The notes beneath the pieces are model-generated. The model ran no database searches. It saw only the letters and a list, made by a program, of their open reading frames with translations, and had not been told where the DNA came from. DNA of 64,000 nt, taken from the NCBI GenBank assembly GCA_963715955.1, contig CAVQSQ010000012.1, forward strand, positions 211,050 through 275,049, read 5' to 3'. Positions 13,853 through 31,141 of the stretch are shown piece after piece. The number at the start of each line of letters is the position of its first letter. Position 1 is the stretch's first letter. Position numbers and translations under genes: made by a program. This DNA is from Candidatus Sulfomarinibacteraceae bacterium. GTDB lineage: Bacteria; Acidobacteriota; Thermoanaerobaculia; Thermoanaerobaculales; Sulfomarinibacteraceae.

Positions 13853-14620
13853 GTGACGATGACTCGACAACAACGCAGCAAGGGCGGAGGCCGTTCGACG
13901 CTGATGGCGTGTCTCGTCACGGTCTGCGGGATCGTTCCCGCGATCGCCCAGATCCCCGCTCCGTCGAGCTACCCCTCGCCCTCTCCGTCCCCCACACCGA
14001 CTCCACCACCGCCCGGAGCGATCGCCATCGAGGTGGTCTTGACGGGAGGCAGGAAACCACTGCCCGGAGACGACTCGGTGGCGTGGATACCGACGCTGAA
14101 ATCGACCGGGGCGGGCAACGGCCACGTCAAAATCGCCCAGAACAAGAAACAGTTCGAACCGCGGATCGCGGTGGTCTCGACCGGTTCGACGGTTGAGTTC
14201 CCGAACTACGACCGCGTTTTTCACAACGTCTTCAGCCTTTCAAAGCCGCAGCCATTCGATCTCGGGCTGTATCGTCGGGGAAAATCGGAGTCCGTCAACT
14301 TTCGACAGCCGGGGTTGATTCAGATCTACTGCAACATCCACCCTCACATGGTCGCCTATCTGATGGTGGTCGATTCCCGGCGCCACGGCGCGGCCGACGC
14401 CGACGGCCGCATCACCCTCCGCGACATCCCACCCGGTCCGACCGCGGTCGAAGGCTGGAACGTGCGCAGCGGCATGTGGTCGCGCGAGGTCACGGTGCGT
14501 CCCGGACGTACCGTCGCACTTTCGGTCGAGCTCGATATCTCGAGTTGGCGCGAGGCCCCCCACCTCAACAAGTACGGGAAGGAGTATCCACCCCCAGATG
14601 ACGACGAATTCCGATACTGA
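13853..14620 (+). CDS. exported cupredoxin-fold protein with amicyanin-like type-1 copper ligand pattern
   Basis: Signal peptide plus a Pro/Ser/Thr linker. FHNVFS ... YCNIHPHM gives the ligand set His plus Cys-x2-His-x2-Met. The C-terminal part looks like a beta-sandwich. Confidence 0.7.
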   Translation: MTMTRQQRSKGGGRSTLMACLVTVCGIVPAIAQIPAPSSYPSPSPSPTPTPPPPGAIAIEVVLTGGRKPLPGDDSVAWIPTLKSTGAGNGHVKIAQNKKQFEPRIAVVSTGSTVEFPNYDRVFHNVFSLSKPQPFDLGLYRRGKSESVNFRQPGLIQIYCNIHPHMVAYLMVVDSRRHGAADADGRITLRDIPPGPTAVEGWNVRSGMWSREVTVRPGRTVALSVELDISSWREAPHLNKYGKEYPPPDDDEFRY

Positions 14621-17154: not shown

Positions 17155-18507
17155 TTACCAGAAGATCCGCCAGGTGACGAGCCACTCGTTGGGTTCGAGA
17201 GTGGACCCGTCCTGCAGTTCGGCCTTGTTGAAGCTGTATTCGACGGTGATGTCGGAGGAACGGACGATCCCGATCCGCAGACCCACGTCGAGCTTCTGCC
17301 AGTCCCAGTACATCGAGGGCGTGATGAACGGGTCCCACACCCAGAAATCGTTGTCGATCTGCGAGTAGCGCACGGCCGGACGCAACCAGGTGAAGACCGG
17401 TGTGTCCCAGGCCGCAAAGAGCGCCGGTATCGGGATGTGAAACGCCGATTCGATCTCGAAGCCCTGGCGCTCGAGGGACGCGATGTCCTGTTTCACGAAC
17501 TGGGCAAAGCCCACCCAGCGGCCGAGCCGCCAGTCGACGTTGAGACCGGCCTCCCACTTCTCGTCGCCTTCGAATGGCAACGGCAACCCGGCTCCCCGCA
17601 ACAGCTCGAGGTCTCCCTGGTAGAAGGTGCCCTCGATCTCCGGTGCATCCTCCAGCGTCCGCGAGTAGTACCAGGCCATCACGTCGACCGACTTCTTGCC
17701 CTCGTCGTTGGCCCACCGCCACCCGAGGCCGCCACCCAGCTCGACCTCGCCGTCGAGACTGAAGTTCTTCGGCCGCGCATCGTACAGAATCGGGAACCCC
17801 GAGTTGTAGGCGGGATCCACGTCGCCCGGGACCCTGTCGAATGTCCCGTTGTCTCCGGCGAGAGCGTTCGGGTCGCGCATGAAGAGGGGCCCGGCGATCC
17901 CGTACTGGCCCCGGAAATAGAGGTTCCCCCCGAGGTTGACACCGAGCTGGATCTGCGGGATCTCGAAACGGTTGACCGCGGTGCCCCACAGCCCGTAACT
18001 CTCGAGGTGACGGACGATCTGTTTGGCGAAGCGGGGCGCCTTACCAGCCTCGACGTACCACGCCCACGGTTCGAGCTTTCTGTGCTGGCGGTCCACCTGA
18101 CCGTAGCGCAGCCAGAACTCCCGAACGAAGACCTCGTCATCGATCGACGAGGGATTTCGGTTGTAGAGGTCGAGGACGTGCACCAGGACCCGCCCGCTGA
18201 ATTTCTCGCTGAACCTGACGTCCAAGCCCAGCTCCACATCCGACATCTCGAAGTGGGACCCGGGATCGACGGTCCGCAGGTAGACGGCGTCGTCCCCCGC
18301 CTCCCAGAACTCCGGCGGAAACGGCACGTTCAGTCTGTGTTCGACGAACGTCGACTGGCGGAAGTTGAAATTCATCTCTCCGAAGAAGGTGAATCCCGTC
18401 TTCTCCTGGGCGTCGGCAGGCACAGCGGACAGACCCGCCAGGAGGACGAGGAGCCCTACGGAGAACCTCGTTACACGCGTCGCCGGAACGGACGTTTGCT
18501 CGGTCAT
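17155..18507 (-). CDS. outer-membrane beta-barrel protein (porin-like, uncharacterised)
   Basis: Signal peptide (...LSAVPADAQE). Alternating amphipathic strands rich in aromatic residues. C-terminal ...LVTWRIFW ends in an aromatic residue, typical of OMP C-termini. Confidence 0.7.
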   Translation of the reverse strand: MTEQTSVPATRVTRFSVGLLVLLAGLSAVPADAQEKTGFTFFGEMNFNFRQSTFVEHRLNVPFPPEFWEAGDDAVYLRTVDPGSHFEMSDVELGLDVRFSEKFSGRVLVHVLDLYNRNPSSIDDEVFVREFWLRYGQVDRQHRKLEPWAWYVEAGKAPRFAKQIVRHLESYGLWGTAVNRFEIPQIQLGVNLGGNLYFRGQYGIAGPLFMRDPNALAGDNGTFDRVPGDVDPAYNSGFPILYDARPKNFSLDGEVELGGGLGWRWANDEGKKSVDVMAWYYSRTLEDAPEIEGTFYQGDLELLRGAGLPLPFEGDEKWEAGLNVDWRLGRWVGFAQFVKQDIASLERQGFEIESAFHIPIPALFAAWDTPVFTWLRPAVRYSQIDNDFWVWDPFITPSMYWDWQKLDVGLRIGIVRSSDITVEYSFNKAELQDGSTLEPNEWLVTWRIFW

Positions 18508-19550: not shown

Positions 19551-21122
19551 ATGCAGGCGTCAGAACGGCCGTCAAACTCCGGTCCGCGATCACGTGACAT
19601 CCCAGCGCTCTCCCTCCCGGTGCTGACAGCCCTGGTCGCGGCCAAGATCGCCCTCCACATCCCGGGGCTCTTCCGCTACGGCTACTTCCGAGACGAACTC
19701 TACTTTCTCGACTGCGCCCGCCACCTCGACTGGGGCTATGTCGACTGCGCTCCGTTGGTGGCCGTCTACGCCAAGATCGCGCTCCTCCTCGGTGGTTCCC
19801 TGCCCGCCCTGCGCATGGTGCCGATGCTCGCCGGGGTGGGGCTGATCGCGATGACGGTGGTTCTGACCCGCCAACTCGGCGGCGGTATCTTCGCCCAGGC
19901 CCTCGCCGGAATGGCGATCCTGATCGCACCGGTTCACCTCATGATCAACAGTGTTCTCTCGATGAATTCCTTCGAGCCCATCTTCTGGATGGGCTGCGTG
20001 TGGGTCGTGATCCGCATCGTTCGCACCGGCGACTCGAGGCTGTGGCTTGTCTTTGGCATCCTCGCCGGCCTCGGGCTCGAGAACAAACACTCGACCCTTT
20101 TCTTCGGCGCCGCGGCCGCGGTCGGAGTGATCGCGACGCCCCTGCGACGCGAACTCACGAAGCCCTGGATCTGGCTCGGCGCAGCGGTCGCGTTGGCCCT
20201 TTTCATGCCCAACCTGTTGTGGCAGTGGCAGCACGACTTCCCGACCCTCGAGGACCTGCGTAACGTCCGGGAAAGCGGCAAGAACGTCGCCCTGGCCCCC
20301 GGGGCGTTCATGGTCCAACAGACCATGATGCTGAACCCGGCGACGCTTCCCGTCTGGCTCGCAGGGTTGTGGTTCCTTCTGCTCGGCCAAGGGCGACGGT
20401 TCCGGGTCCTCGGCTGGACCTACCTCGCACTGCTCGCGATGCTGATGGCGCTGCACGCAAAGGACTACTACCTGGCGCCGATCTACCCCATGCTCTTTGC
20501 CGCCGGCGGGGCCGCATTCGAAGGCTGGACCTCGGCCCTCGCCAGGGCTCGCGCACGACTTTCGGTCCAGGTAGCGTTGCTGCTCTCCGTCATGGTTCCC
20601 GGCGCCCTGATCGCTCCTCTCGCCCTGCCGATCCTGGAGCCCGCCGCCTATGTTGCCTACCAGCAGCGCCTCGGAGTCGCCCCCGAAAAGACCGAGGTCG
20701 CGCACGAGGGCCCACTGCCCCAGTTGTGGGGCGACCAGTTCGGCTGGCCGGAACTGGTGTCCGAGATTGCGGCGATCTACAACGCGCTGCCGCCGGAGGA
20801 GCGAGCCAGAACCGGAATCTTTGCCAGCAACTACGGCGAAGCGGGAGCGATCAACCTCTTCGGGCCCGCCCTCGGTCTGCCTCCAGCGATCTGCGCCCAC
20901 CAGACCCACTCGATGTGGGGCCCCGGGGACTTCGATGGTGACACCCTGATCTGGCTGCAGTGGGAGCCCGAATGGTTGGAAGACCGCTGCACCTCAGTTG
21001 AAATCGTCGGTGAACACCACCACCCCTGGGGCATGGCGGAGGAGAATCGTCCGATCCTCCTGTGCCGCAATCTCACCCCACCGCTCGCCGAACAGTGGCC
21101 GGACCTACGGCACTGGAACTGA
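19551..21122 (+). CDS. glycosyltransferase family 39 (ArnT/PMT-like) membrane protein
   Basis: YFRDELYFLDCARHLDWGYVDCAPL loop motif, at least 10 TM helices and a soluble C-terminal domain. Confidence 0.8.
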   Translation: MQASERPSNSGPRSRDIPALSLPVLTALVAAKIALHIPGLFRYGYFRDELYFLDCARHLDWGYVDCAPLVAVYAKIALLLGGSLPALRMVPMLAGVGLIAMTVVLTRQLGGGIFAQALAGMAILIAPVHLMINSVLSMNSFEPIFWMGCVWVVIRIVRTGDSRLWLVFGILAGLGLENKHSTLFFGAAAAVGVIATPLRRELTKPWIWLGAAVALALFMPNLLWQWQHDFPTLEDLRNVRESGKNVALAPGAFMVQQTMMLNPATLPVWLAGLWFLLLGQGRRFRVLGWTYLALLAMLMALHAKDYYLAPIYPMLFAAGGAAFEGWTSALARARARLSVQVALLLSVMVPGALIAPLALPILEPAAYVAYQQRLGVAPEKTEVAHEGPLPQLWGDQFGWPELVSEIAAIYNALPPEERARTGIFASNYGEAGAINLFGPALGLPPAICAHQTHSMWGPGDFDGDTLIWLQWEPEWLEDRCTSVEIVGEHHHPWGMAEENRPILLCRNLTPPLAEQWPDLRHWN

Positions 21123-21126
21123 CGTT

Positions 21127-22227
21127 CTACGGAACGGTCGCCGACCACGCGTTGCTGTTACCGGACTCGAAGCCATCGCTGAACACCCCGACCGGGACCC
21201 GGCACACGTGATCAATCCACGTTTCCTGACCGCCAATCGCAAAGCTCTCGATCACACCTGAAACAACCAGCGTGCCGGCCGTTCCGGTCGGTGGCTGGAG
21301 CGTGATCGTGGCACCACCTAGGGTTGTCAGGTGGAGATCCGTGAAATTTCCGACGTTGGCCAGAGTGTCGTTGACCACCAGATTCACGTTGCCGCCATAA
21401 TCCTCGTAGAGCAGTGTGATCTCGGCAAGCGGTTCATCGACGGCGAAGAAGATGTTCACATTGTTCGGCCAAATGTCCTGGCCCGTCCCGCCGGAATCTT
21501 GGGCGTTTTCGACTCTGGAGAAACCGGTCGTCGTCGAACCGGTTGGAAGCCAGAAGAACTCCTCGACCAACATCCCGACACCCGAGTCGACAAAGAACCG
21601 CCCGTATTCGTACTCTTCCCCCAGGGGCAGGTCCTCGAATTCGATGCAGCCTGTCGGACCAGTCGCTTCGCAGATGTCGTCGATCCACAGTTCCTGGCCG
21701 CCGATCGAGAACGAGTTCACGGTTCCATTGACGACCATGATTCCCAATCCGGTCGGCGACAGGCTCACTTCAACCAGCGTGCCGCCCACCATCTGATCGT
21801 TGAGTTCTTCCAGATCCAGTACGTTTCTGAAATCACCGTTGATCGTGAGATTGACGTTGCCGCCGTATTCTCCGAAAAACAAACGGAGATTCTCGACCGA
21901 ACGGCCGAAACCGAAGTTCACCGTGATGTTGTTGACCTCGAGGTCGTAACCGGTGCCTCCTGACAGACCGGCGTCATCGACCTCCGCGAACCCGGCTGAC
22001 GTCCACGTGCCGTTCGTCCATCGGAACGCCGAGGTGGTGATGGTTGTCCCCGACGAAGCAAAGGTCCCCGGAACGTTGTGGACCGCACCGAGCTGAAGAT
22101 CCTCGAACCCGACGCAGTCGCCCGGAGCGAGCGTCGCCGCAGCCGGACGAGTCGAAATCGCCAAGAGAAGAATCGCCGCAATCTTCACGGTTCGTTGAAA
22201 TGAACTCGAAACCGCACCATCGTTCAT
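21127..22227 (-). CDS. exported protein with two about 170-aa internal repeats and a C-terminal GFESGN..W tail
   Basis: AAGGGGG lies upstream of the ATG at 22227, and a signal peptide is present. Two Cys-bounded repeats (C.GFEDL.LG ... YGGNVNL ... SF.IGGQE.WID..C). The protein ends VGVFSDGFESGNSNAWSATVP. Confidence 0.65.
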   Translation of the reverse strand: MNDGAVSSSFQRTVKIAAILLLAISTRPAAATLAPGDCVGFEDLQLGAVHNVPGTFASSGTTITTSAFRWTNGTWTSAGFAEVDDAGLSGGTGYDLEVNNITVNFGFGRSVENLRLFFGEYGGNVNLTINGDFRNVLDLEELNDQMVGGTLVEVSLSPTGLGIMVVNGTVNSFSIGGQELWIDDICEATGPTGCIEFEDLPLGEEYEYGRFFVDSGVGMLVEEFFWLPTGSTTTGFSRVENAQDSGGTGQDIWPNNVNIFFAVDEPLAEITLLYEDYGGNVNLVVNDTLANVGNFTDLHLTTLGGATITLQPPTGTAGTLVVSGVIESFAIGGQETWIDHVCRVPVGVFSDGFESGNSNAWSATVP

Positions 22228-22388
22228 GATGACCCCCTTTGGTGGAGCAAAGACCGCCCTTTTCAGTTCTTGATGTGAAATCCGGTGTTCGTACAATCTC
22301 AATCATATCAGCAGTCAAGAACTGTAATTGCATGATTGAACAAGTAGTTACATGACCATGTTCGGGTTCATGTGGCAGCCGGCAGGCA

Positions 22389-23729
22389 TTACCCTGAGGG
22401 AGTTGACGCCCACCACGTCCAGTCACCGGACTCGAAGCCGTCCACGAAAATCCCCCATCCGAACTCGTCGGCGCCGATATCTGGTGTTGCGTCGCGATGC
22501 TGCCGATCGATATCGCCGTCACACAGCCCGGACGTCAGGAGCGTGCCGGCGTCGACCGGGCTCGAGAGCGGGTCGACCAGGTGGAGGTCGCCGCCGGCGA
22601 CATCCGAGAACAGACTCACCGGTTCGCCGCTGAGGTTGGTGGTGAGGACGGCAGTTCCGCCGCGATCGCGGATCGGACCGGTCGTCAGGTTGTTCACGAT
22701 GGTGACCGAGGTGTCGATGTACCGCCACTCGATGGAGGAAAACGGCGTCTCGGTCGAGGCCACGGTGTTGTGGTACACGGCGGCGCCCTCGGCGCCCCAG
22801 AGTGCGATGCCCGCGTCAAAGCCGTACTCGGACGCGAAGAGACCGGTATCGGAGGCGGCCACGAAGTTGTTGCGGATGATGCCGTCCGTGTGGCCGTCGG
22901 CACCCGAACCGAGCCCGAAGCCGATGCCACGGGCGCAGTCGACGATGACGTTTTCTTCCACCACGGTATCGGCCGACGCGCGCCACAGGTGGATCCCGTG
23001 TTCGGACAGCCCGGACTCGCACCAGAAGCCCTCGATGCGGTTGCGCCACACCCGCCACCCGGTGGCGGCGTGGGCGTCGAGCCCGCCGGTGTAACAGTTG
23101 TTGCGGATGTGCGGCCGCCCGGCATCGGTGAGTTCGATACGCGAACACTGGAGGGAGCTGTCATCGACCGTTCCCTCCCCCACCGGGTTGACCTTCACCG
23201 CCTGCTCTCCGGGGTCGATGATGTGGACGTTGTGGATCAGTACTCCGCTGATCGGCGTCCCCGGCCCACTCACGTGGATCGGGTGGTAGTACGCCCGTTG
23301 CAGCGTGAGGTCGGCGATCGTCGTGTTCGAGGCCTGGATGCTGATCAACTCACCCGAAACGTAGCCGCCGTCGAGAACCACCGCCTCGCGATCGCCGCCG
23401 GCTGACCTCAAGGTCAGGCCGGGGGTCGTGACGTGCAGGAATGCCCCGTCGAGGTCATAGGTGCCGTCGTGAAGCAGGATCGTCGTGCCGGTGGCGGCGT
23501 TGGCGACGATCCCGGGCAGGTCGCCCACCTGTGACGGCTGGACTTCGATCACCGGTCCGGTCGGAGGCGGCAGCAATGGGCAGGGCGCCTGGGCGACGAG
23601 GAGACCCGGCACGCCTATAGACCCGAGGAACGCGAGCGTCGCGATCACCGCACGGGATGACGTTCGCAACCAACTGAACACAACTCCAGTGTGCGCGTCC
23701 CCTGCATGGCTCGCGGTGTTCCCGGTCAC
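22389..23729 (-). CDS. exported right-handed parallel beta-helix repeat protein (pectate-lyase-fold) with a GFESGD..W tail
   Basis: Repeated NN.I/V..G.G beta-helix rungs (IRNNCYTGG, VEENVIVDCARGIGFG, IIRNNFV, VYHNTV). The start overlaps the S9 stop as ATGA. The protein ends FVDGFESGDWTWWASTPSG. Confidence 0.8.
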   Translation of the reverse strand: MTGNTASHAGDAHTGVVFSWLRTSSRAVIATLAFLGSIGVPGLLVAQAPCPLLPPPTGPVIEVQPSQVGDLPGIVANAATGTTILLHDGTYDLDGAFLHVTTPGLTLRSAGGDREAVVLDGGYVSGELISIQASNTTIADLTLQRAYYHPIHVSGPGTPISGVLIHNVHIIDPGEQAVKVNPVGEGTVDDSSLQCSRIELTDAGRPHIRNNCYTGGLDAHAATGWRVWRNRIEGFWCESGLSEHGIHLWRASADTVVEENVIVDCARGIGFGLGSGADGHTDGIIRNNFVAASDTGLFASEYGFDAGIALWGAEGAAVYHNTVASTETPFSSIEWRYIDTSVTIVNNLTTGPIRDRGGTAVLTTNLSGEPVSLFSDVAGGDLHLVDPLSSPVDAGTLLTSGLCDGDIDRQHRDATPDIGADEFGWGIFVDGFESGDWTWWASTPSG

Positions 23730-25915
23730 TCCTCAGAAGGGATGACCACGTCCTCGTCCCAGATCCACTTCGCAAAGAACCGCCAGTTGTGCCACACCGC
23801 CGCCAGCAGCTCCTTGGGTTTGGAGATCCCGTGACCGAAGCCCTTGTAGATCACCAACTCCACAGGGACGCCCACGTCCTGCAGACCCTGGTAGAGCTCG
23901 TAGGCGTTCGGCGTCGGCACCCGCCGGTCGAACTCGCCGTGCTGGATCAGGGTCGGCGTCGAAGCGTCATTGATGTAGGACATCGGCGACGTCCTGGCGT
24001 AGACCTCGGGATCGCTCCACGGCGTGCCCTGCAGGTAGTGGCGGGTGAAGGGGTGGATGTCGGTGTTGACGTAGTAGGTCATCCAGTTGGAGATCCCCGC
24101 CCCGACCGAGATCGCCGCGAACCGGTCGCTGGTGGTGGTCAGAAAGGCGGAGATGTAGCCGCCCTGGCTCCAGCCCATCGCCCCGATGCGATCGCCGTCG
24201 ACGAAACCCTGAGCCACCAGGTGGTCGACCCCCGACAGCACGTCCCAGGCGTCGCCGACGCCGAGGTTGCGGACGTTGAGGGAGCGGAATGCCTCACCGT
24301 ACCCTGCCGACCCGCGGTAGTTGGGCATCAGAATCACGGCCCCCTTCTCGAGCCACTGCTGAACCGGGTAGACGTAGGTGTAGGCGCGAACCGGGAACGA
24401 CAGCCACGACGGACCGCCGTGGATGATCACGAGCAGCGGGTGTTTCTCCGACGGGTCGAACCCGTCAGGTTTGAGCAGGATGCCCTCGATCGTCGCGCCG
24501 TCCTCGCTCGCCCACTCGACGACCTCGCGACTTCCCATCGCCCAGCCGTCGGTCTGCTCGGTGGAGCTGGGTGATGCGGCGAGCGCCCGGTCGTCACCGG
24601 GGTCGACCCGGTACACCTCATCCAGCGTGTCGATGCCTTCTCCCTGAAACGCCCACGTCCGCCCGTCCTTCGAAAAATCGACGCTCCAGATGATCCGAGG
24701 CGCTCCCTCGACCACCACTCGATCTATCTCGCCGCTCTCCGGGTCGAGCCGGAAGAGCCCGCGGGTCGTTCGATGAAGCGCCAGAAAGCGGATGCCGTCG
24801 TCGAGCCATGCCACCGCGGACGCGTCCTCGTCAAAGGCCTCGGTCAAGACGACCGGCTCGCCACCGCCGGCAGGCACCTTCGCCAGTTCGGAGTTGAGGT
24901 AGTACGACGGATCGCCGTCACCGGTGGAAAACAGCACCCAGGCGCCATCCGGCGACCAGTGCGGGTCGCGGTCCGGGCCCGCCTGCGCGACCAGTGCCTT
25001 GACCTCGGTGCTTTTCACGTCGACGACCGAGAGATCCGCCTCGGTCCGAGATTCGACGCGCGGGTCCGGCCGGTGGTCGAAGGCGATCCTGGTGCCGTCG
25101 GGCGACCAGCGAAAGGTGTCGACGGTGAATTCCGCGCCGCTCGTGAGACGTCGAAACGGCGAGGGTTTCTCGTCTTTCTTCCCATCGTGCTCCTCGTCAT
25201 CATCGCCGGTCGATTCGTCCGGGAGTTCGGCCCCTTCACCACCGGCGAGGGCGGCCCTCACATCCAGCAGCCACAGGTGGGTGTTGCGGAAGTCGTGATC
25301 CTCGATCGAATAGGCCCCGTAGGTCTCCTCGAGCTTCTTCCGTTCCGGGTCCTGGCGGTCGGTGATGGCGACGGCCATCCGGGCGCCGTCGGGCGCCCAC
25401 TCGAAAGCCGAAACTCCGTCTTCGACCGCCGTCAGGGGCCGGGCCTCGCCGCCACGAGGCGAGATCAACCAGATCTGCGAACCCTGGCCCCGGTCGGCCG
25501 CAAACGCGATCCAGGAACCGTCCGGCGACCATTTCGGGTCCGAACTGCTCTCGCCCTCGGTTCGCGTCAGCTGGAAAGGCTCCTCTCCGCGGCGGGCCAG
25601 CCAGAGCTCGGCGTCGAACCGGTTCTCCTCCCATTCTGCCCGGCGCACCGTGTACACAATGGCACTGCCGTCGGGCGAGATCTTCGGGTCGCCGGCGCTC
25701 TCCAGGCTGAGGACCTCCCGGAAACCCGGATCGGAAAAGGCGACCGGGCTGGCCTGCGTCTCTTCGGTCTCATCCGCCCCAACAAAGGAAGCGACCACCA
25801 GCCCACAGACCAGGGAGAACCACACCAACCTGAACACTCTGGGTCTCACACCGCCCTCCACGACTCCTCCGAATTCAGAACAACGTCCTGCGGCGGCAGC
25901 GTACCACGAGCCCAC
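23726..25915 (-). CDS. S9 family serine peptidase (beta-propeller plus prolyl-oligopeptidase catalytic domain)
   Basis: GWSQGGY nucleophile elbow. HGEFDRRVP and GFGHG motifs near the C-terminus. N-terminal TolB-like propeller repeats (SPDGS/W.PDG). The likely true start is the GTG at 25849 (VRPRVFRLVWFSLVCGLVV...). Confidence 0.9.
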   Translation of the reverse strand: MGSWYAAAAGRCSEFGGVVEGGVRPRVFRLVWFSLVCGLVVASFVGADETEETQASPVAFSDPGFREVLSLESAGDPKISPDGSAIVYTVRRAEWEENRFDAELWLARRGEEPFQLTRTEGESSSDPKWSPDGSWIAFAADRGQGSQIWLISPRGGEARPLTAVEDGVSAFEWAPDGARMAVAITDRQDPERKKLEETYGAYSIEDHDFRNTHLWLLDVRAALAGGEGAELPDESTGDDDEEHDGKKDEKPSPFRRLTSGAEFTVDTFRWSPDGTRIAFDHRPDPRVESRTEADLSVVDVKSTEVKALVAQAGPDRDPHWSPDGAWVLFSTGDGDPSYYLNSELAKVPAGGGEPVVLTEAFDEDASAVAWLDDGIRFLALHRTTRGLFRLDPESGEIDRVVVEGAPRIIWSVDFSKDGRTWAFQGEGIDTLDEVYRVDPGDDRALAASPSSTEQTDGWAMGSREVVEWASEDGATIEGILLKPDGFDPSEKHPLLVIIHGGPSWLSFPVRAYTYVYPVQQWLEKGAVILMPNYRGSAGYGEAFRSLNVRNLGVGDAWDVLSGVDHLVAQGFVDGDRIGAMGWSQGGYISAFLTTTSDRFAAISVGAGISNWMTYYVNTDIHPFTRHYLQGTPWSDPEVYARTSPMSYINDASTPTLIQHGEFDRRVPTPNAYELYQGLQDVGVPVELVIYKGFGHGISKPKELLAAVWHNWRFFAKWIWDEDVVIPSEE

Positions 25916-26050
25916 AGCACGGTGTTCTCAACTCTGGTCAACACAGGGTGTGATGGCCGTCACCGCTGATACCGGACCACCTCGACATCGAGGAAGCGTG
26001 GCATATACTGGGAGGTGCAACCAAGAAAACCATCGAGAGGGGAATTCTGA

Positions 26051-27274
26051 ATGAGGGCTCAACTCCTGGCCGCGGCATTGATCATTGCTGTCGGGTTCGG
26101 CGCGGCTGCGCCGTCGACAGCGTCCGACGAGACCCCATCCGTCAAGGCGATCGCGCTGATCGACGACTTCGAGGACGGCGACCTTGTCGGATGGGCAGCG
26201 CCCACCGGCGGCTGCACCGCCGTCAACACCGGGCTCACCGGCGCGAACGGTTCGTCACGCAGCCTCCAGGTGGACGGAGCGTGCGGCCATTACCAGGGGC
26301 CGTGGTTCGACCTCGTCAACTTCCAGGCGACCGGCGTCAGCTTCTGGGTGCGCCCGGGCTCGACCTCTTTGGCCGATACGTACGTCGTCATCGGCGACGA
26401 CAATGTGACGAACAACAATGGTGTGGTCTTCTTTTACGGCCACTCCACCGGTCAGTTCGTGCTCATTGGTCCCGGTATCGACGACTACTTCCTCGCGCCA
26501 TACGTCGCCAACCAGTGGTATCGGATCGACCTCACCCTCGACTGGGTCGGCCGCACCGTCGACGTCTTCATCGACGGCGTGGCGCGGCAGTACAACGTGC
26601 CCTTCCGGTCGCCGGCAACCACAACGCTGACCCAGCTCCACTTCTACAATTTCAACAACTCGACCGCATGGCTCGACTACATCGTGATGTCGTCGCCGCC
26701 CCCGTCTCTCGATCTCTTCGAAAACGGGTTCGAGTCCGCCGACACGACCGCCTGGTCGCTCACAACGCCGGCGCTGCCGTCGCGCCTCGTGCTCTACGAC
26801 GGCGGCGGCATCTCGGGCCCGATCGGGGGCCGCTCGGGGGCCGACGTCCTGTGCGGACAGACGGCCCTGACGGCCACGGGCATCCCCCTCAATGCCACCA
26901 CCCGCGCCTTTCTTTCGTTCTCGGCGTCCGACGAGATCCGTGATTTTCCGACGTTGTACGGTGTGCCCACGGACCGCCAGATCACCGGCCCCAACTGGAG
27001 TGTGGTCGCCGACGACTGGGCCGATCTTCTCGACGGAACGATCGATCAGACGCTGGTCGACGCCGGGGTTCTGACCGCGAGCAACTTCTGGTACACCGGC
27101 AGCAACCCGGACGGGGCCGTGGCACCCTACACCTGCAGCGGTTGGACCGACGGCGCCACCTTTTTCGACGGACGCTACGGCAGCAGCCAGGTAGGCGACG
27201 ACCGCTGGATCAGCACCGGAGAAGCGACCTGCGGCCTCGTTTCCTACCACGTGCTCTGCCTCGCCTGGAGGTGA
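26051..27274 (+). CDS. exported two-domain protein: ConA/LamG-like jelly-roll plus C-terminal endostatin/DUF1554-like domain
   Basis: Signal peptide. N-terminal domain DDFEDGDLVGW...WYRIDLTLDW...VFIDG. Linker LFENGFESADTTAWSLTTP. The C-terminal domain carries GGRSGADVLCGQTA..TRAFLSFS...W..LLDG...FWYTGSNPDG..YTCSGWTDG...ATCG..SYHVLCLA. Confidence 0.7.
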   Translation: MRAQLLAAALIIAVGFGAAAPSTASDETPSVKAIALIDDFEDGDLVGWAAPTGGCTAVNTGLTGANGSSRSLQVDGACGHYQGPWFDLVNFQATGVSFWVRPGSTSLADTYVVIGDDNVTNNNGVVFFYGHSTGQFVLIGPGIDDYFLAPYVANQWYRIDLTLDWVGRTVDVFIDGVARQYNVPFRSPATTTLTQLHFYNFNNSTAWLDYIVMSSPPPSLDLFENGFESADTTAWSLTTPALPSRLVLYDGGGISGPIGGRSGADVLCGQTALTATGIPLNATTRAFLSFSASDEIRDFPTLYGVPTDRQITGPNWSVVADDWADLLDGTIDQTLVDAGVLTASNFWYTGSNPDGAVAPYTCSGWTDGATFFDGRYGSSQVGDDRWISTGEATCGLVSYHVLCLAWR

Positions 27275-27864: not shown

Positions 27865-28761
27865 TCACCGGCGCCGCGGCGAGTGCGAAGCCACGGCGAC
27901 CCCGATGACGACCATGGCCGAACCCACAAGGGTGCGCGCGGTCAGCGTTTCGTCGAGGAAAAGGACGCCCAACACGACCGCGACCACCGGCGTGCCGTAA
28001 CCGATCAGTGCCACCTGACGAGCTCGCATGTGCTCGAGCAGCCAGAAGTAGAGGGGAAAGGTGATCGCGGTCCCGGCCACGGCCATGTAGAGGATCGCCA
28101 GCACCGGCCAACGTTCCAAGACAATCGTCTCGTGCCCTTCGGTGAAAGCGGCGACAACACCCATGATGACCGATCCATAAACAACCGCCACCGCGTTGAA
28201 CGCAACCGGCCGGATGCCGTGCCCCCACTTCTTGTAGGCAACGGTCGAGATGGCTGCGACGAAAGGCGACACCAGCATGATGAGCGAGGCCACCAGGACC
28301 GAACGGCCTCCGAGCAGATCGAAATCCTCGGCAAAGATGGCGGCGATGCCGGCAAAACCCAGGGCCGTACCCACCATCACCTTGACGGTCATGCGTTCGC
28401 CAGGCAGCGCGAAGTGGGCCATCACCGCCACGATCAACGGAAAGGTCGCAAAAAGGACCGCTGCCAGCCCGGAAGGCACCCACTGTTCGGCCCAGAACAC
28501 GATCCCGTAGGAAATGCAGAACGACAGCACGGCGTGGACCACCCGCAACCACCGGTCGCGGCTGTTGATCGCAGCCAACGGGGTGCCGATTGCGCGCGCG
28601 ATCACGACGAGAAGAACGGCGGCAACGACGAACCGCAGGGCAACCCCCGTGAAGGGCGGGAAGCCGCGCAGCGAAATCCTCACCGCCGCCCACGTCGTCC
28701 CCCAGATCCCGACCAGGAGTGCGAGCGTCGCAGCCTTCAACGCGGGACCCGGTTCACCCAT
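27865..28761 (-). CDS. EamA/DMT family transporter
   Basis: Ten TM helices and two EamA halves (WGTTWAAVRISL...; ...LLEHMRARQVALIGYGTPVVAVVLGVLFLDE). The start is the ATG at 28761, and the track ORF is over-extended upstream. Confidence 0.85.
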   Translation of the reverse strand: MGEPGPALKAATLALLVGIWGTTWAAVRISLRGFPPFTGVALRFVVAAVLLVVIARAIGTPLAAINSRDRWLRVVHAVLSFCISYGIVFWAEQWVPSGLAAVLFATFPLIVAVMAHFALPGERMTVKVMVGTALGFAGIAAIFAEDFDLLGGRSVLVASLIMLVSPFVAAISTVAYKKWGHGIRPVAFNAVAVVYGSVIMGVVAAFTEGHETIVLERWPVLAILYMAVAGTAITFPLYFWLLEHMRARQVALIGYGTPVVAVVLGVLFLDETLTARTLVGSAMVVIGVAVASHSPRRR

Positions 28762-28833
28762 GACCGGCGACTCTACTCCCACCACTGGGCAAACGCCAGA
28801 TCGTCGGCCGTCGCGAGAGCCTGAAAATGCCGA

Positions 28834-28839
28834 TATAAT
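28834..28839 (+). promoter_or_regulatory. perfect TATAAT hexamer 7 nt upstream of the permease ATG (possible leaderless promoter)
   Basis: Sequence ccgaTATAATtccgcgcATG. There is no Shine-Dalgarno between the hexamer and the ATG at 28847. The -35 element is weak. Confidence 0.3.
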
Positions 28840-28846
28840 TCCGCGC

Positions 28847-31141
28847 ATGAACACCACATCCAGGGGACCGGTACCGGCCGCCGGAGAAACCACCTTTGCG
28901 CGCGACCTCGGTTTGTTCGACGCCACCATGATCGGGGTCGGCGCGATGATCGGCGCCGGCATCTTCGTCCTCACCGGGATCGCGGCCGGGGTCTCCGGCC
29001 CGGCTTCGATCCTCGCCTTCGCCCTCAACGGCGCGGTCACTCTGCTGACGGCCTTTGCCTATGCGGAGTTGGCCTCGGCCATTCCACGTGCCGGCGGCGG
29101 ATACTCCTACGTGCGGCTCGCCTTCCCCGGAGCGATGGGATTCATATCCGGCTGGATGCTGTGGTTTGCCTACACGGTGGCCTGCAGCCTCTACGCGCTC
29201 GGTTTCGCGGGGTATTTCTGGGAGGTCTTCCACAAATACACGCCGGCCCTTGCCGAGCACCTGTTCGGCGCCGCGGGGACCTACGTTCCGATCGTCGTCG
29301 TCACCGTGATCATCGGGTTCATCTTCCTCGGCCTCAACATCCGCGGCGCAGCGGTGACCGGCAAGGCCGAAAACGCCCTCACTCTCGCCAAGCTGGCGGT
29401 GCTCGGGATCTTCATCGCCTACGGGCTCAAGAAGATCTTCGGCGCCCCGGCGGAGGCGGCCGAGGGCTTCTCTCCGTTCTTCCCGCTCGGCGCCGGCGGC
29501 GTCATCGTCGCCATGGGTCTGACCTTCATCGCCTTCGAGGGCTACGACCTCATCGCCACCGTCGCCGAGGAGATCAAGGACCCGGAAAAGAACATCCCGC
29601 GCGCCACCTTCATCTCCCTCGCCGTCACCATCACCATCTATCTCCTGATCCTGTTCGTCTCGCTCGGCGCCATCCGCGTCGACGACCTGACGTCCTGGGA
29701 GTTTTTGGGCAGGTACGGGGAGACCGCCATCGTCCGCGCCGCCGAGCAGTTCATGCCGGCCTTCGGGGTCGCCATCATCGTCCTCGGCGGCCTGTTGTCC
29801 ACGATGTCGGCCCTCAACGCGACCATCCTCGCGGCTTCCCGCGTCGCCTTCTCGATGGCCAGGGACCGTTGGCTGCCCAGGCAGATCGCCCACATCGACC
29901 CGGTCCGCCGGACCCCCCGCGCCGCCATCGTCGTCACCGGCGTGATCCTGATCGTCATGGCAGTCACCCTGCCCATCGAGGCCGTCGGCTCGGCCGCGAG
30001 CCTGATTTTTCTTCTGACCTTTGCACTGGTGAACCTGTCGGTGATCGCGCTGCGGCGCAAGGCGCCCGAGATCGAGCGCAGGTACAGGGTGCCGCTGTAC
30101 CCCTTGACGCCGATCCTCGGCATCGTCCTCAACGTCTTCCTCGCCCTCTACCAGTTCACCTTCCAGCCCATCGCCTGGTACATCACGACCGGCTGGGTGG
30201 TGCTCGGTTTGTTGCTCTATTACGGCGTGTTCGAGAAGCTGGCCTCGGATGTCGAGCCGAAGGTGCTGGTGCCGTCGCGCCGCCCCGACGAACCACCGGC
30301 CGAGGACTCGGTGATGGTGGTCCTCCACAACCCCGACTTCATCGAGACGCTGCTCGACTTCGCGATCCCGGTGGCCGAGCTGCGCGGCCGGCGACTGGTT
30401 GCGATGACGGTCGTCGAGGTCCCGCAACAGCTGCCGATCCACGAAGGCATGCGTTTTGCGCACCACAAGGAGACGCTCCTGCGCGACGCCCAGCAGTACG
30501 GCAGAGAGCGTGGGGTCAAGATCGACACCGACCTCGTGATCGCCCACAAGGTCGAGGAGGGCATATTCACCGGCGCCGCCCGCCACCGGGCGGACGTCAT
30601 GGTCATGGCGTGGAAGGGCTTCAGCAACACCCGCGACCGCATCTTCGGCGAGACCGCGGACAACGTCATCCGCTACGCGCCCTGCGACCTGATGATGCTC
30701 AAGATCGAGGGTCGGGAGTTCAGGACCTGTCTCTTCCCGACCGCCGGCGGGCCCAACGCCCAGCTCGCGGCCGATCTGCTCAACGCCCTCGCCAAGTCCC
30801 ACAACATGGAGGTCACGGCGGGCTATGTCGTCCCGCCGGACGCCACCGACGAACAGCGCCACACCGCCCGCGCGTGGATCGACAAGACGCTGGCCCACAT
30901 GCACGTCGACCTGCCGGTCGAAAAGCAACTGATCGAGTCCGCATCGGTGGCCGGCGGTCTCGCCAAGGCGAGCCGCGACTTCGACCTCGTCGTCATCGGT
31001 GCGGCCAAGGAGCCGGTCTTCCGCAAGATGTTGATCGGTGAGATCCCGCAGAAGGTGGCACGGTACTCGCCGGCTTCCGTGCTGGTCGTCAAGCGCTACG
31101 AGGGCCCGTTCAAGACCCTCATCAAACGGATCATGGGCTGA
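28847..31141 (+). CDS. APC-superfamily amino-acid permease fused to tandem universal stress protein (Usp) domains
   Basis: LGLFDATMIGVGAMIGAGIFVLTG with about 12 TM helices. The C-terminal part of about 270 aa has two Usp-like halves (VMVVLHNP...MVMAWKG; ...VVIGAAKE...VLVVKR). Confidence 0.85.
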   Translation: MNTTSRGPVPAAGETTFARDLGLFDATMIGVGAMIGAGIFVLTGIAAGVSGPASILAFALNGAVTLLTAFAYAELASAIPRAGGGYSYVRLAFPGAMGFISGWMLWFAYTVACSLYALGFAGYFWEVFHKYTPALAEHLFGAAGTYVPIVVVTVIIGFIFLGLNIRGAAVTGKAENALTLAKLAVLGIFIAYGLKKIFGAPAEAAEGFSPFFPLGAGGVIVAMGLTFIAFEGYDLIATVAEEIKDPEKNIPRATFISLAVTITIYLLILFVSLGAIRVDDLTSWEFLGRYGETAIVRAAEQFMPAFGVAIIVLGGLLSTMSALNATILAASRVAFSMARDRWLPRQIAHIDPVRRTPRAAIVVTGVILIVMAVTLPIEAVGSAASLIFLLTFALVNLSVIALRRKAPEIERRYRVPLYPLTPILGIVLNVFLALYQFTFQPIAWYITTGWVVLGLLLYYGVFEKLASDVEPKVLVPSRRPDEPPAEDSVMVVLHNPDFIETLLDFAIPVAELRGRRLVAMTVVEVPQQLPIHEGMRFAHHKETLLRDAQQYGRERGVKIDTDLVIAHKVEEGIFTGAARHRADVMVMAWKGFSNTRDRIFGETADNVIRYAPCDLMMLKIEGREFRTCLFPTAGGPNAQLAADLLNALAKSHNMEVTAGYVVPPDATDEQRHTARAWIDKTLAHMHVDLPVEKQLIESASVAGGLAKASRDFDLVVIGAAKEPVFRKMLIGEIPQKVARYSPASVLVVKRYEGPFKTLIKRIMG

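What the first reader, a model, noticed from the sequence alone, without database searches (positions are those of the whole stretch)
21127..27274. Cluster of exported proteins sharing a GFESGD...W...TP tail, organised around a translationally coupled S9 peptidase
Three neighbouring secreted proteins carry the same short motif. The two-repeat protein ends ...VFSDGFESGNSNAWSATVP. The beta-helix protein ends ...IFVDGFESGDWTWWASTPSG. The divergent LamG/endostatin-like protein has ...LFENGFESADTTAWSLTTP as the linker between its two domains. On the minus strand the S9 peptidase stop overlaps the beta-helix gene start (ATGA at 23726-23729), so those two genes are co-expressed. An about 18-residue tail shared at the extreme C-terminus of otherwise unrelated exported proteins resembles a sorting, anchoring or processing tag, by analogy with C-terminal sorting domains recognised by dedicated peptidases. 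I do not recognise this one as a named sorting signal, and any role for the adjacent S9 peptidase in processing it is speculation.
Basis: inference. Interest (0 to 1): 0.55.

Follow-up and report, generated by a model that had tools for sequence, protein, structure and literature searches.

The report
Undescribed C-terminal tag on acidobacterial exoproteins
Two neighbouring secreted proteins end in, and a third contains, a conserved 19-residue peptide (hFxDGFExGDTxxWSxTVP) that ends many unrelated exported proteins of Thermoanaerobaculia and Holophagae; it looks like an undescribed sorting or anchoring tag, and it has no detectable link to the adjacent S9 peptidase.

Summary
The motif occurs three times in 6 kb, against 0.00 expected by chance, and it sits at the extreme C-terminus of A and B and inside D.

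It is not a local oddity. An unbiased DNA scan of GTDB genomes found 131 motif copies with a stop codon in view. Of these, 101 lie within 11 residues of the stop and 63 have exactly 5 residues after the Trp. Nearly all terminal copies (88 of 101) are in Acidobacteriota.

The carriers are typical exoproteins: subtilases, M14/M28 peptidases, beta-helix, BNR, FG-GAP, PKD and MtrC-like cytochromes. 83% have a signal-peptide-like N-terminus.

In Chloroflexota, Actinomycetota and archaea the same motif is never terminal. There it forms the first 18 positions of a ~190-residue ConA/LamG-like domain.

Within protein A's family the tail sits where other lineages carry a T9SS sorting domain or a GC-type dockerin. 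AlphaFold leaves the motif disordered in both A and D, yet it is at least as conserved as the folded domains. It also occurs in tandem copies.

No Pfam or NCBIfam model matches it, and no searched paper contains it.

The S9 link fails: there are no S9 homologues in 869 kb around 120 tails. The claimed ATGA overlap is actually GTGA, at an uncertain start codon.

Best reading: a new, trans-recognised C-terminal tag. Its partner and mechanism are unknown.

The parts
21130..21186 (-). C-terminal tail of protein A: VFSDGFESGNSNAWSATVP, followed by the stop codon at 21127-21129
   Evidence: It matches only positions 2-18 of a 199-position LamG-like domain HMM. AlphaFold pLDDT falls from 77 to 49 across it, with no strand and no docking onto the domains. 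Across 34 orthologues it shows 65.5% pairwise identity, against 58.9% for the folded domains.
21127..22227 (-). Gene A: exported protein with two tandem jelly-roll domains, each bracketed by Cys residues, plus the tail. The family behaves like a 'choice-of-anchor' core.
   Evidence: P0001 is 366 aa and 100% identical. AlphaFold mean pLDDT 89.6; weak match to tandem CBM22; homologues carry alternative C-terminal modules.
22392..22451 (-). C-terminal tail of protein B: IFVDGFESGDWTWWASTPSG, followed by the stop codon at 22389-22391
   Evidence: Orthologues keep the tail: L001 has ...GFESGDDSWWSD* and L002 has ...GFESGDWLWWTARTGV*. Many B-like fragments (...PDIGADE...) end in the tail.
22389..23729 (-). 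Gene B: exported right-handed beta-helix protein (longest ORF; the true start may lie 16-21 codons downstream)
   Evidence: Beta_helix 1.5e-7 and NosD 1.8e-5; sequence of the junction with the S9 gene.
23726..25915 (-). Gene C: S9 serine peptidase with an N-terminal PD40 beta-propeller. It has no tail and is a neighbour, not a demonstrated part of the tag system.
   Evidence: Peptidase_S9 4e-50; Dpp5-like at 236 bits, below the cut-off; no association with tails elsewhere.
26714..26770 (+). Internal copy of the complete tail in protein D (residues 222-240, LFENGFESADTTAWSLTTP), lying between its two domains
   Evidence: AlphaFold pLDDT is below 50 for residues 217-240, indicating a disordered linker. 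It is conserved across 38 orthologues at 60.5% identity, against 48.4% for the LamG domain.
26162..26194 (+). The related motif DDFEDGDLVGW at the start of D's own ConA/LamG-like domain, where it forms the first strand and loop of the folded domain
   Evidence: strand at residues 33-38, Trp48 in a strand, pLDDT 79-95; the CBM_4_9 profile aligns from position 6 at residue 37.
26051..27274 (+). Gene D: exported protein with a ConA/LamG-like lectin domain, the motif linker, and a DUF1554 domain
   Evidence: DUF1554 2e-6. AlphaFold model. Foldseek matches to sialidase lectin domains, Cip1 and AbnA domain 4.

Best explanation
The shared peptide is a self-contained, lineage-specific C-terminal tag. 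Its consensus is [LIV]-F-x-D-G-F-E-[ST]-G-[DN]-T-S-A-W-S-x-T-V-P-COOH, about 19 residues, acidic, with no hydrophobic helix and no basic residues. It is attached to many unrelated Sec-exported proteins of the Acidobacteriota classes Thermoanaerobaculia and Holophagae. It derives from, or mimics, the first beta-strand and loop of a ConA/LamG/CBM4_9-type jelly-roll domain. In these bacteria it exists without the rest of that domain. The proposed mechanism is inference. After Sec export the tail stays flexible and exposed and is bound in trans by a dedicated partner. That partner either retains the protein at the cell surface, as a dockerin does, or passes it to an outer-membrane export or attachment step, as a T9SS C-terminal domain does. 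The three invariant aromatic and acidic residues (F, E, W) are core-packing residues in the full domain. The most natural binding mode is therefore beta-strand augmentation or fold complementation of a receptor. The usual terminal Pro would protect the tag from carboxypeptidases. A, B and D are simply three cargo proteins that happen to be neighbours. The S9 peptidase is a bystander.
For: Shown by tool results:
1. Terminal position. In a DNA scan that placed no constraint on what follows the Trp, 101 of 131 resolved copies lie within 11 residues of a stop and 63 have exactly 5 residues after the Trp. They sit at the ends of ORFs up to 1,863 aa long. 69 of the 101 end in Pro.
2. Lineage. 88 of the 101 terminal copies are in Acidobacteriota. 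None of the 26 copies in Chloroflexota, Actinomycetota, Archaea, Armatimonadota, Verrucomicrobiota or Vicinamibacteria is terminal (21 are internal, 1 unclear, 4 run off the locus).
3. Cargo. The 88 carriers scanned are FG-GAP, beta-helix, BNR, InhA-MAM, S8, M14, M28, PKD, DUF11, MtrC/F cytochromes, LVIVD and PAD_porph proteins. 83% have a hydrophobic N-terminal segment, against 28% of other ORFs.
4. Modularity. Among the 120 best A-family hits, 36 carry the tail, 30 a dockerin-like end, 4 a T9SS C-terminal domain, 23 other short tails and 19 nothing, all immediately after the same GGQELWIDxVC core. TIGR04183 and NF041540 hits confirm the T9SS and dockerin calls. Two or three tandem copies, 21-24 aa apart, occur at some C-termini.
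5. Origin. An HMM of the ~190-aa domain matches end to end in other phyla, but only positions 1-18 match in the acidobacterial tails, including window A.
6. Not part of the host fold. AlphaFold leaves the motif disordered in A (pLDDT 77 to 49) and in D (below 50), while D's own N-terminal copy folds into its LamG domain.
7. Selection. The tail is as conserved as the folded domains, or more so.
8. No existing model or paper covers it.
Against: No partner, receptor or processing enzyme was identified. No recurrent dedicated neighbour appears in 869 kb around the tails; the only recurrent neighbours are Ser/Thr kinases and ECF sigma factors. Localisation, cleavage and binding are all untested. 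The tag lacks every structural hallmark of proven sorting signals, so the function rests on analogy with position and cargo. Some copies are internal even in Thermoanaerobaculia: D here, and 7 of the 50 resolved copies. A free C-terminus is therefore not strictly required. Low pLDDT could partly reflect the fact that only 34 of 63 alignment rows carry the tail. Taxon labels are the submitters' MAG labels. No whole-proteome count was possible.
Confidence: 0.6

Rival explanations
1. Processing tag for the adjacent S9 peptidase. The co-transcribed S9 enzyme would recognise and trim or mature the tails of its neighbours.
For: S9, B and A are co-directional and tightly spaced in the window. The same order is kept in L001 and L124. 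S9 enzymes include post-proline endopeptidases, and D's internal motif ends ...TTP|ALP.
Against: There are no S9 homologues in 869 kb flanking 120 tails. A at 51% identity (L003) and D at 61% identity (L125) have no S9 neighbour. S9 is lost in L002, and B is lost in L124 while S9 stays. The window holds a second S9 plus M3 and M1 peptidases, so S9 genes are simply dense here. The overlap start is GTGA at an uncertain start codon.
Confidence: 0.05
2. Neutral relic. The tail is what remains of C-terminal ConA/LamG-like domains that were truncated by stop codons, and it has no function of its own.
For: The motif equals positions 1-18 of a real domain that sits C-terminally in many multidomain exoproteins of other phyla.
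Against: A relic would decay. Instead the tail is as conserved as the folded domains and ends at the same residue in 63 copies on unrelated proteins. It occurs in tandem arrays. It is confined to particular lineages, where it is the dominant form of the motif. No downstream ORF encodes the rest of the domain.
Confidence: 0.08
3. Intramolecular element. The tail folds back as an edge strand or cap on whatever domain precedes it, for example as a stabiliser or a shield against aggregation, and is not recognised in trans.
For: It follows the last folded domain directly, with no Pro/Thr-rich linker. It has beta-hairpin character in its LamG context.
Against: The preceding domains are structurally unrelated: jelly rolls, beta-helices, propellers, subtilases and cytochromes. 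AlphaFold does not dock it in A or D. Tandem copies and the internal linker copy do not fit a cap role.
Confidence: 0.07
4. Periplasmic quality-control or turnover signal. The conserved free C-terminus (...T-V-P-COOH) would be read by a PDZ-domain protease of the Prc/CtpA/DegS type, to time maturation or degradation rather than localisation.
For: The distance from the Trp to the C-terminus is strikingly fixed. PDZ domains recognise C-terminal tri- to pentapeptides (established knowledge).
Against: Lineage variants end right after the Trp (AWQ*, AWD*, AW*) or carry 6-11 extra residues. Internal and tandem copies exist. The alternation with dockerin and T9SS domains points to localisation.
Confidence: 0.12

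Closest known systems
T9SS type A C-terminal sorting domain (TIGR04183, Por_Secre_tail) of Bacteroidota and relatives
   Same: It sits at the extreme C-terminus of Sec-exported enzymes and adhesins with the same cargo spectrum: subtilases, M28 and M14 peptidases, PAD, PKD and BNR proteins. It has no transmembrane helix. It occupies the same position in homologues of protein A (P0096, P0098, P0099).
   Different: The T9SS domain is a folded beta-sandwich of about 70-100 aa. The tail is about 19 aa, disordered on its own, gives no HMM match, and occurs in Acidobacteriota, where no T9SS link was shown.
Dockerin modules (type I and GC-type dockerin NF041540) that bind cohesins
   Same: A swappable C-terminal module on secreted enzymes that works by non-covalent binding to a partner. 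It alternates with the tail in A's family.
   Different: Dockerins are about 60-70 aa Ca-binding folds with a known partner domain. No partner is known for the tail.
Tripartite sorting signals (PEP-CTERM/exosortase, LPXTG/sortase, GlyGly-CTERM/rhombosortase, MYXO-CTERM)
   Same: A short, lineage-restricted signature at the C-terminus of many unrelated exoproteins in one genome. These signals were discovered in the same way, as a recurring tail.
   Different: Those signals have a motif, a transmembrane helix and a basic cluster, and are cleaved by a membrane enzyme. The tail has net charge about -3, no hydrophobic segment and no Arg/Lys.
N-terminal strand and loop of ConA-like lectin/glucanase domains (Laminin_G_3, CBM_4_9, PF14099)
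   Same: The sequence motif hF-x-D-G-F-E-x-G-x-x-x-x-W is the same. The tail aligns to HMM positions 1-18 of such a domain and to the start of the CBM_4_9 profile.
   Different: The remaining ~170 residues of the domain are absent. The tail is followed by a stop codon.
Donor-strand or fold complementation (chaperone-usher and type V pili; the engineered split-domain SpyTag/SpyCatcher)
   Same: A short terminal strand taken from a beta-sandwich could complete an incomplete fold in another protein. This mode would explain why core residues are exposed on an isolated peptide.
   Different: This is purely an analogy. No strand-deficient receptor was found here.

Membership tests
Tripartite C-terminal sorting signals (PEP-CTERM, LPXTG, GlyGly-CTERM, PGF-CTERM) | A hydrophobic transmembrane helix follows the signature motif | tested here: not met
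   The tails are 14-25 aa and end 0-11 residues after the Trp. They contain no hydrophobic stretch.
Tripartite C-terminal sorting signals (PEP-CTERM, LPXTG, GlyGly-CTERM, PGF-CTERM) | A cluster of basic residues at the extreme C-terminus | tested here: not met
   The consensus ends S-x-T-V-P. 69 of 101 tails end in Pro, and the tail is acidic (D, E, D).
Tripartite C-terminal sorting signals (PEP-CTERM, LPXTG, GlyGly-CTERM, PGF-CTERM) | A match to the curated HMMs | tested here: not met
   No NCBIfam or Pfam hit to the tail, even at E<=10.
Tripartite C-terminal sorting signals (PEP-CTERM, LPXTG, GlyGly-CTERM, PGF-CTERM) | A cognate sorting enzyme co-occurs in the genome | not testable with these tools
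   Whole genomes could not be retrieved. No sortase- or exosortase-like neighbour recurs in 869 kb.
T9SS C-terminal sorting domain | A folded C-terminal beta-sandwich of about 70-100 aa that matches TIGR04183 or TIGR04131 | tested here: not met
   A and B give no such hit. The tail is 19-20 aa and disordered. The model does hit A-family homologues from other lineages.
Dockerin | Duplicated Ca-binding loop-helix segments (PF00404 or NF041540) | tested here: not met
   No hit in A, B or D. It is present instead of the tail in Phycisphaerales-type homologues.
ConA-like / LamG / CBM_4_9 domain | The N-terminal strand motif F-x-D-G-F-E-x-G-x(4)-W | tested here: met
   The tails align to HMM positions 1-18 of the domain. 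The CBM_4_9 profile starts at the motif.
ConA-like / LamG / CBM_4_9 domain | A complete jelly-roll sandwich of about 130-200 aa follows the motif | tested here: not met
   A stop codon follows 5-6 residues after the Trp in A and B. D's second copy is followed by DUF1554 and is disordered. No downstream ORF supplies the rest.
Type I secretion C-terminal signal | Substrates lack an N-terminal Sec signal peptide | tested here: not met
   A, B and D, and 83% of 72 complete carriers, have a signal-peptide-like N-terminus.
Outer-membrane-protein beta-signal | A C-terminal aromatic residue that ends a beta-barrel | tested here: not met
   The terminal residue is Pro in 69 of 101 tails, and the carriers are soluble enzyme folds.
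   There are 0 S9 hits near 120 tails. Synteny holds only in close relatives and decays even there.
   The overlap is GTGA at the first possible start. Alternative downstream starts exist. The gap is 69 bp in L001.

The most novel reading that the evidence does not exclude
Thermoanaerobaculia and Holophagae may possess an undescribed exoprotein sorting or anchoring system. Its address label would be an orphan first beta-hairpin of a LamG-type jelly roll. A surface or outer-membrane receptor would bind this 19-residue tag by fold complementation, acting as a natural 'split-domain' counterpart of cohesin-dockerin or of the T9SS C-terminal domain. The tag would thereby define the secretome or surfaceome of a large, mostly uncultured clade.
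Probability: 0.2. Interest if true: 0.85.

Novelty: new variant of a known kind. Interest (0 to 1): 0.62.

Why it matters
C-terminal sorting tags such as LPXTG, PEP-CTERM and the T9SS C-terminal domain each led to the discovery of a dedicated secretion or anchoring machine. They are also used to predict surface proteomes.

A conserved tag of a different build has not been catalogued: it is short, acidic, lacks a helix, and is derived from a lectin-domain strand. It marks proteases, polysaccharide-active beta-helix proteins and outer-surface cytochromes across two classes of Acidobacteriota.

It would give:
- an immediate bioinformatic handle on the exoproteome of abundant soil, sediment and wastewater bacteria that are almost entirely uncultured;
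- a concrete target for phylogenetic profiling to find the unknown partner machinery;
- possibly a compact natural peptide-receptor pair.

It also shows how a domain fragment can be re-used as a linear motif.

Tried and rejected
1. The tail-only profile search of the 5.8-billion-protein database (searches failed on parameters; one search ran). It returned only proteins under 80 aa, which are gene fragments. These are useful for showing the conserved ending, but they are biased. I therefore relied on the DNA scan for the position statistics.

2. The representative-library search. The profile kept 25 B-specific columns, so about half of the top hits are giant proteins that match the 'DxxxRxxxPDIGADE' beta-helix end. 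I used only the hits that contain the motif.

3. Looking up the window's own contig via P0001 failed; the protein is not on record. The organism is inferred from relatives and the taxon table to be a Thermoanaerobaculia-type acidobacterium.

4. A search for a recurrent neighbour gene that could be the partner found only Ser/Thr kinases, ECF sigma factors, glycosyltransferases and response regulators. It found no sortase-, protease- or receptor-like family.

5. A search for LamG-like domains lacking their first strand, as candidate receptors, in about 1 Mb of loci found none in Acidobacteriota. One Roseiflexaceae ORF (L028 7458-8000) starts at HMM position 16, but this is probably a frameshift.

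6. Stop-codon readthrough or a split gene supplying the rest of the domain was rejected. Stop-codon usage after the tails (TGA 47, TAG 44, TAA 10) is close to background.

7. An N-glycosylation sequon (G-N-T-S) was considered and rejected. 82 of 101 tails have Asp rather than Asn at that position, and the PMT_2 gene next to A is absent in L001.

8. Literature searches for the motif strings, and for Thermoanaerobaculia sorting signals, found nothing relevant.

Full report
**1. What is in the window**

The region holds four exported proteins.
- A (21127-22302, minus strand; the database twin P0001 starts at M26 and is 366 aa) ends ...CRVPVGVFSDGFESGNSNAWSATVP*.
- B (22389-23729, minus strand) is a right-handed beta-helix protein (Pfam Beta_helix 1.5e-7, NosD 1.8e-5). 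It ends ...GWGIFVDGFESGDWTWWASTPSG*.
- C (23726-25915, minus strand) is an S9 serine peptidase with a PD40 propeller. It has no tail.
- D (26051-27274, plus strand) has a ConA/LamG-like domain, then LFENGFESADTTAWSLTTP at residues 222-240, then DUF1554.

A six-frame regex scan finds no further copy in the 64 kb. The only related element is DDFEDGDLVGW at the start of D's LamG domain. The back-translated pattern hits 3 times, against 0.00 expected in 100 shuffles.

One detail of the finding is wrong. The S9/B overlap reads GTGA, not ATGA. The GTG is only the first possible start, it abuts a GAGGAG with no spacing, and in-frame GTG and TTG codons 16-21 codons downstream would give a more canonical signal peptide. 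In the relative L001 the two genes are 69 bp apart. Coupling is therefore unproven.

**2. The tail is widespread and strictly terminal**

Homologues of A down to about 40% identity keep the tail as [LIV]F.D[GD]FE.G[ND]T..W..T[VI]P-COOH.

A profile of the tail retrieved about 120 gene fragments from metagenomes. In about 110 of them the motif is followed by exactly five residues and the end of the protein.

That search returned only short proteins, so I ran an independent test. Results for the 136 matches:
- 131 have a stop codon in view;
- 101 of those lie within 11 residues of the stop, where about 3 would be expected for random placement in ORFs of median length 565 aa;
- 63 have exactly 5 residues after the Trp;
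- the ORFs run up to 1,863 aa.

69 of the 101 terminal copies end in Pro. The invariant positions are F2, D4, G5, F6, E7, G9 and W14.

**3. Who carries it**

By taxon, the terminal form is found in Thermoanaerobaculia (43, including Multivoradales), Holophagae (13), Acidobacteriota with no class given (32), one 'Deltaproteobacteria' MAG set (6), unclassified bacteria (5), and one Planctomycetota and one Bacteroidota MAG. The labels are the submitters' own.

A Pfam scan of 88 carrier ORFs finds FG-GAP/VCBS, Beta_helix, BNR, InhA-like MAM, Peptidase_S8, M14, M28, PKD, DUF11, MtrC/MtrF-type cytochromes, LVIVD and PAD_porph. No family covers the tail itself.

83% of the 72 complete carriers have a hydrophobic N-terminal segment, against 28% of other ORFs in the same loci. 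The exceptions look like over-extended start codons.

**4. Where the motif comes from**

The scan also returned 29 internal copies and one 14 residues from a stop. They come mainly from Chloroflexota, Actinomycetota, Archaea, Armatimonadota, Verrucomicrobiota and Vicinamibacteria. In those groups none of the 26 copies is terminal (21 are internal, 1 unclear, 4 run off the locus).

In most of those other-phylum copies the motif opens a domain of about 175-200 residues, often repeated every ~215-290 aa. That domain gives sub-threshold matches to Laminin_G_3, PF14099, 3keto-disac_hyd and CBM_4_9, with the motif aligned to the very start of the CBM_4_9 profile.

I built a local HMM of this domain with 199 positions. 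It matches end to end in those phyla. In the acidobacterial carriers, window A included, it matches only positions 1-18, at the extreme C-terminus. No downstream ORF supplies the rest.

The tail is therefore an orphan first strand and loop of a ConA/LamG-type jelly roll.

D provides an internal control. Its own N-terminal copy is folded into the LamG sandwich (pLDDT 79-95). The second copy, at residues 217-240, is predicted to be disordered (pLDDT below 50).

**5. Evidence that it is a functional, trans-acting module**

(a) In A's family the conserved core ...GGQELWIDxVC is followed by different ends. Counts among the 120 best hits:
- the tail: 36;
- a dockerin-like module: 30 (NF041540 GC-type dockerin confirmed in P0069);
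- a T9SS type A sorting domain: 4 (TIGR04183 above cut-off in P0096, P0098, P0099);
- two other short uncharacterised tails: 18 and 5;
- nothing: 19.
The tail thus occupies the slot used elsewhere by proven anchoring and sorting modules.

(b) AlphaFold models A as two confident jelly-roll domains (pLDDT above 90). The tail falls from 77 to 49 and is not docked.

(c) Despite that, the tail is as conserved as the folded parts, or more so. The figures are 65.5% against 58.9% pairwise identity in A, and 60.5% against 48.4% (LamG) in D.

(d) Some proteins end in two or three tandem copies spaced 21-24 residues apart, for example P0336, P0345, P0382 and P0308. This fits an autonomous binding unit and does not fit a truncated-domain relic.

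(e) Lineage-specific length variants exist, ending ...AWQ*...AWD* or ...TVGGP*.

**6. The S9 peptidase**

A phmmer search with C against all ORFs in the 869 kb flanking the 120 scanned loci gave no hit at E<1e-5.

The S9-B-A order is kept only in close relatives:
- L001, where A is 66% identical;
- L124, where D is 78% identical but B is reduced to a 112-aa remnant that still carries the tail;
- L002, where only an S9 remnant is left beside B.

A at 51% identity (L003) and D at 61% identity (L125) sit in unrelated contexts.

The window contains a second S9 peptidase (35915-38035), an M3 peptidase, an M1 peptidase and an amino-acid permease. S9 genes are simply frequent in this peptide-scavenging genome. 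I rate the S9-processing idea at about 5%.

**7. Mechanism (inference)**

The tail has none of the features of sortase- or exosortase-type signals (no transmembrane helix, no basic cluster). It is too short to be a T9SS C-terminal domain or a dockerin. Its carriers have Sec signal peptides, so it is not a T1SS signal.

Its invariant F, E and W are core residues in the parent fold. On an isolated, flexible peptide they would be exposed. The simplest model is that they are buried in a partner, that is, beta-augmentation or fold complementation of a receptor that retains or routes the cargo. The terminal Pro would resist carboxypeptidases (general enzymology; inference here).

I could not identify the partner. 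The only recurrent neighbours are Ser/Thr kinases (13 loci) and ECF sigma factors (7 loci), and no strand-deficient LamG domain turned up.

The rivals are a neutral relic, an intramolecular cap and a PDZ-read turnover signal. Each is argued against above, but none is excluded experimentally.

**8. Novelty**

No Pfam (2025) or NCBIfam (release 20) model matches the tail, even at E<=10. No paper in the searchable library contains the motif strings. Searches on Thermoanaerobaculia or acidobacterial sorting signals found nothing relevant.

The kind of feature, a recurring C-terminal tag on exoproteins, is well known. This build of tag, and its origin from a lectin-domain strand, appear to be undescribed. 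I therefore class it as a new variant of a known kind.

Caveats: the function is inferred from position, cargo, modularity and conservation only. Subscription literature and InterPro could not be searched.

Noticed in passing
Proteins P0033, P0035, P0038, P0040, P0043-P0054, P0061, P0065, P0071 (homologues of A): A second uncharacterised short C-terminal tail follows the same GGQELWIDxVC core...R(I/V)FLPL(V/I)(M/V)R.. or ..YLPLI(M/Y)K.., about 10-15 aa and hydrophobic-basic. It gives no NCBIfam hit (P0033, P0041). It may be another lineage-specific tag.
   Followed up: partly
Proteins P0014, P0026, P0032, P0042, P0055 (homologues of A): A third tail type...PGE..V.ANVP...(L/M)LLL(D/H/G)E*, ends 510-525-aa family members. 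One of them is annotated as an Acidobacteria MAG protein. It gives no NCBIfam hit.
   Followed up: no
Proteins P0336, P0343, P0345, P0347, P0353, P0362, P0368, P0369, P0382, P0308, P0297: Two or three tandem copies of the tail, spaced 21-24 residues apart, occur at the C-termini of small proteins. P0308 has a complete LamG-like domain followed by two tails.
   Followed up: partly
13 of the 120 scanned loci (e.g. L027, L038, L046, L094, L100, L106, L113), and window 14598-16766 (+): Ser/Thr protein kinases of about 950 aa, often paired with an ECF-type sigma factor (7 loci), recur next to tail-bearing genes. The window has a HAMP-Ser/Thr kinase 4.4 kb from A, and the same holds in L001 and L124. 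This could be plain abundance or a regulatory link.
   Followed up: no
L003 (JGI metagenome 3300017613), 21 kb: Five tail-bearing ORFs lie in 21 kb, including a pectate lyase. Four of them use a short variant that ends 0-1 residue after the Trp (...AWD*, ...CW*, ...TWN*, ...AWL*). This suggests secretome islands and lineage-specific tail lengths.
   Followed up: partly
L124 7320-7658 (P0241, 112 aa) and L002 7847-8203: The cluster decays in close relatives. B is reduced to a 112-aa C-terminal remnant that still ends in the tail. In L002 the S9 gene beside B is only a remnant, and several genes in that long-read assembly look fragmented.
   Followed up: partly
window 33810-38035 (-), 57250-59346 (-), 28514-31138 (+): An M3 oligopeptidase directly abuts a second S9 peptidase. 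There is also an M1 aminopeptidase with a Big_5 domain, and an amino-acid permease fused to two Usp domains. The neighbourhood is rich in peptide catabolism.
   Followed up: partly
window 19551-21119 (+): A PMT_2 / GT-C-type glycosyltransferase converges on the 3' end of gene A. It is present in L124 but absent in L001. No link to the tail was found.
   Followed up: partly
window 17158-18507 (-): A 450-aa exported protein with no Pfam hit ends in ...VTWRIFW, an aromatic terminus typical of outer-membrane beta-barrels. It is conserved in the synteny of L001 and L124.
   Followed up: no
L028 7458-8000 (+) (Roseiflexaceae MAG): A stop-to-stop ORF begins at position 16 of the LamG-like domain HMM, so the domain lacks its first strand directly after a stop codon. 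It is probably a frameshift, but it is the only 'strand-less' copy seen.
   Followed up: no
One search, hits such as P0242, P0244, P0250, P0254 (3,500-7,800 aa): Giant proteins contain 5-10 repeats matching the segment D.D...R....PDIGADE that precedes B's tail. This beta-helix terminal motif is itself a widespread repeat.
   Followed up: no
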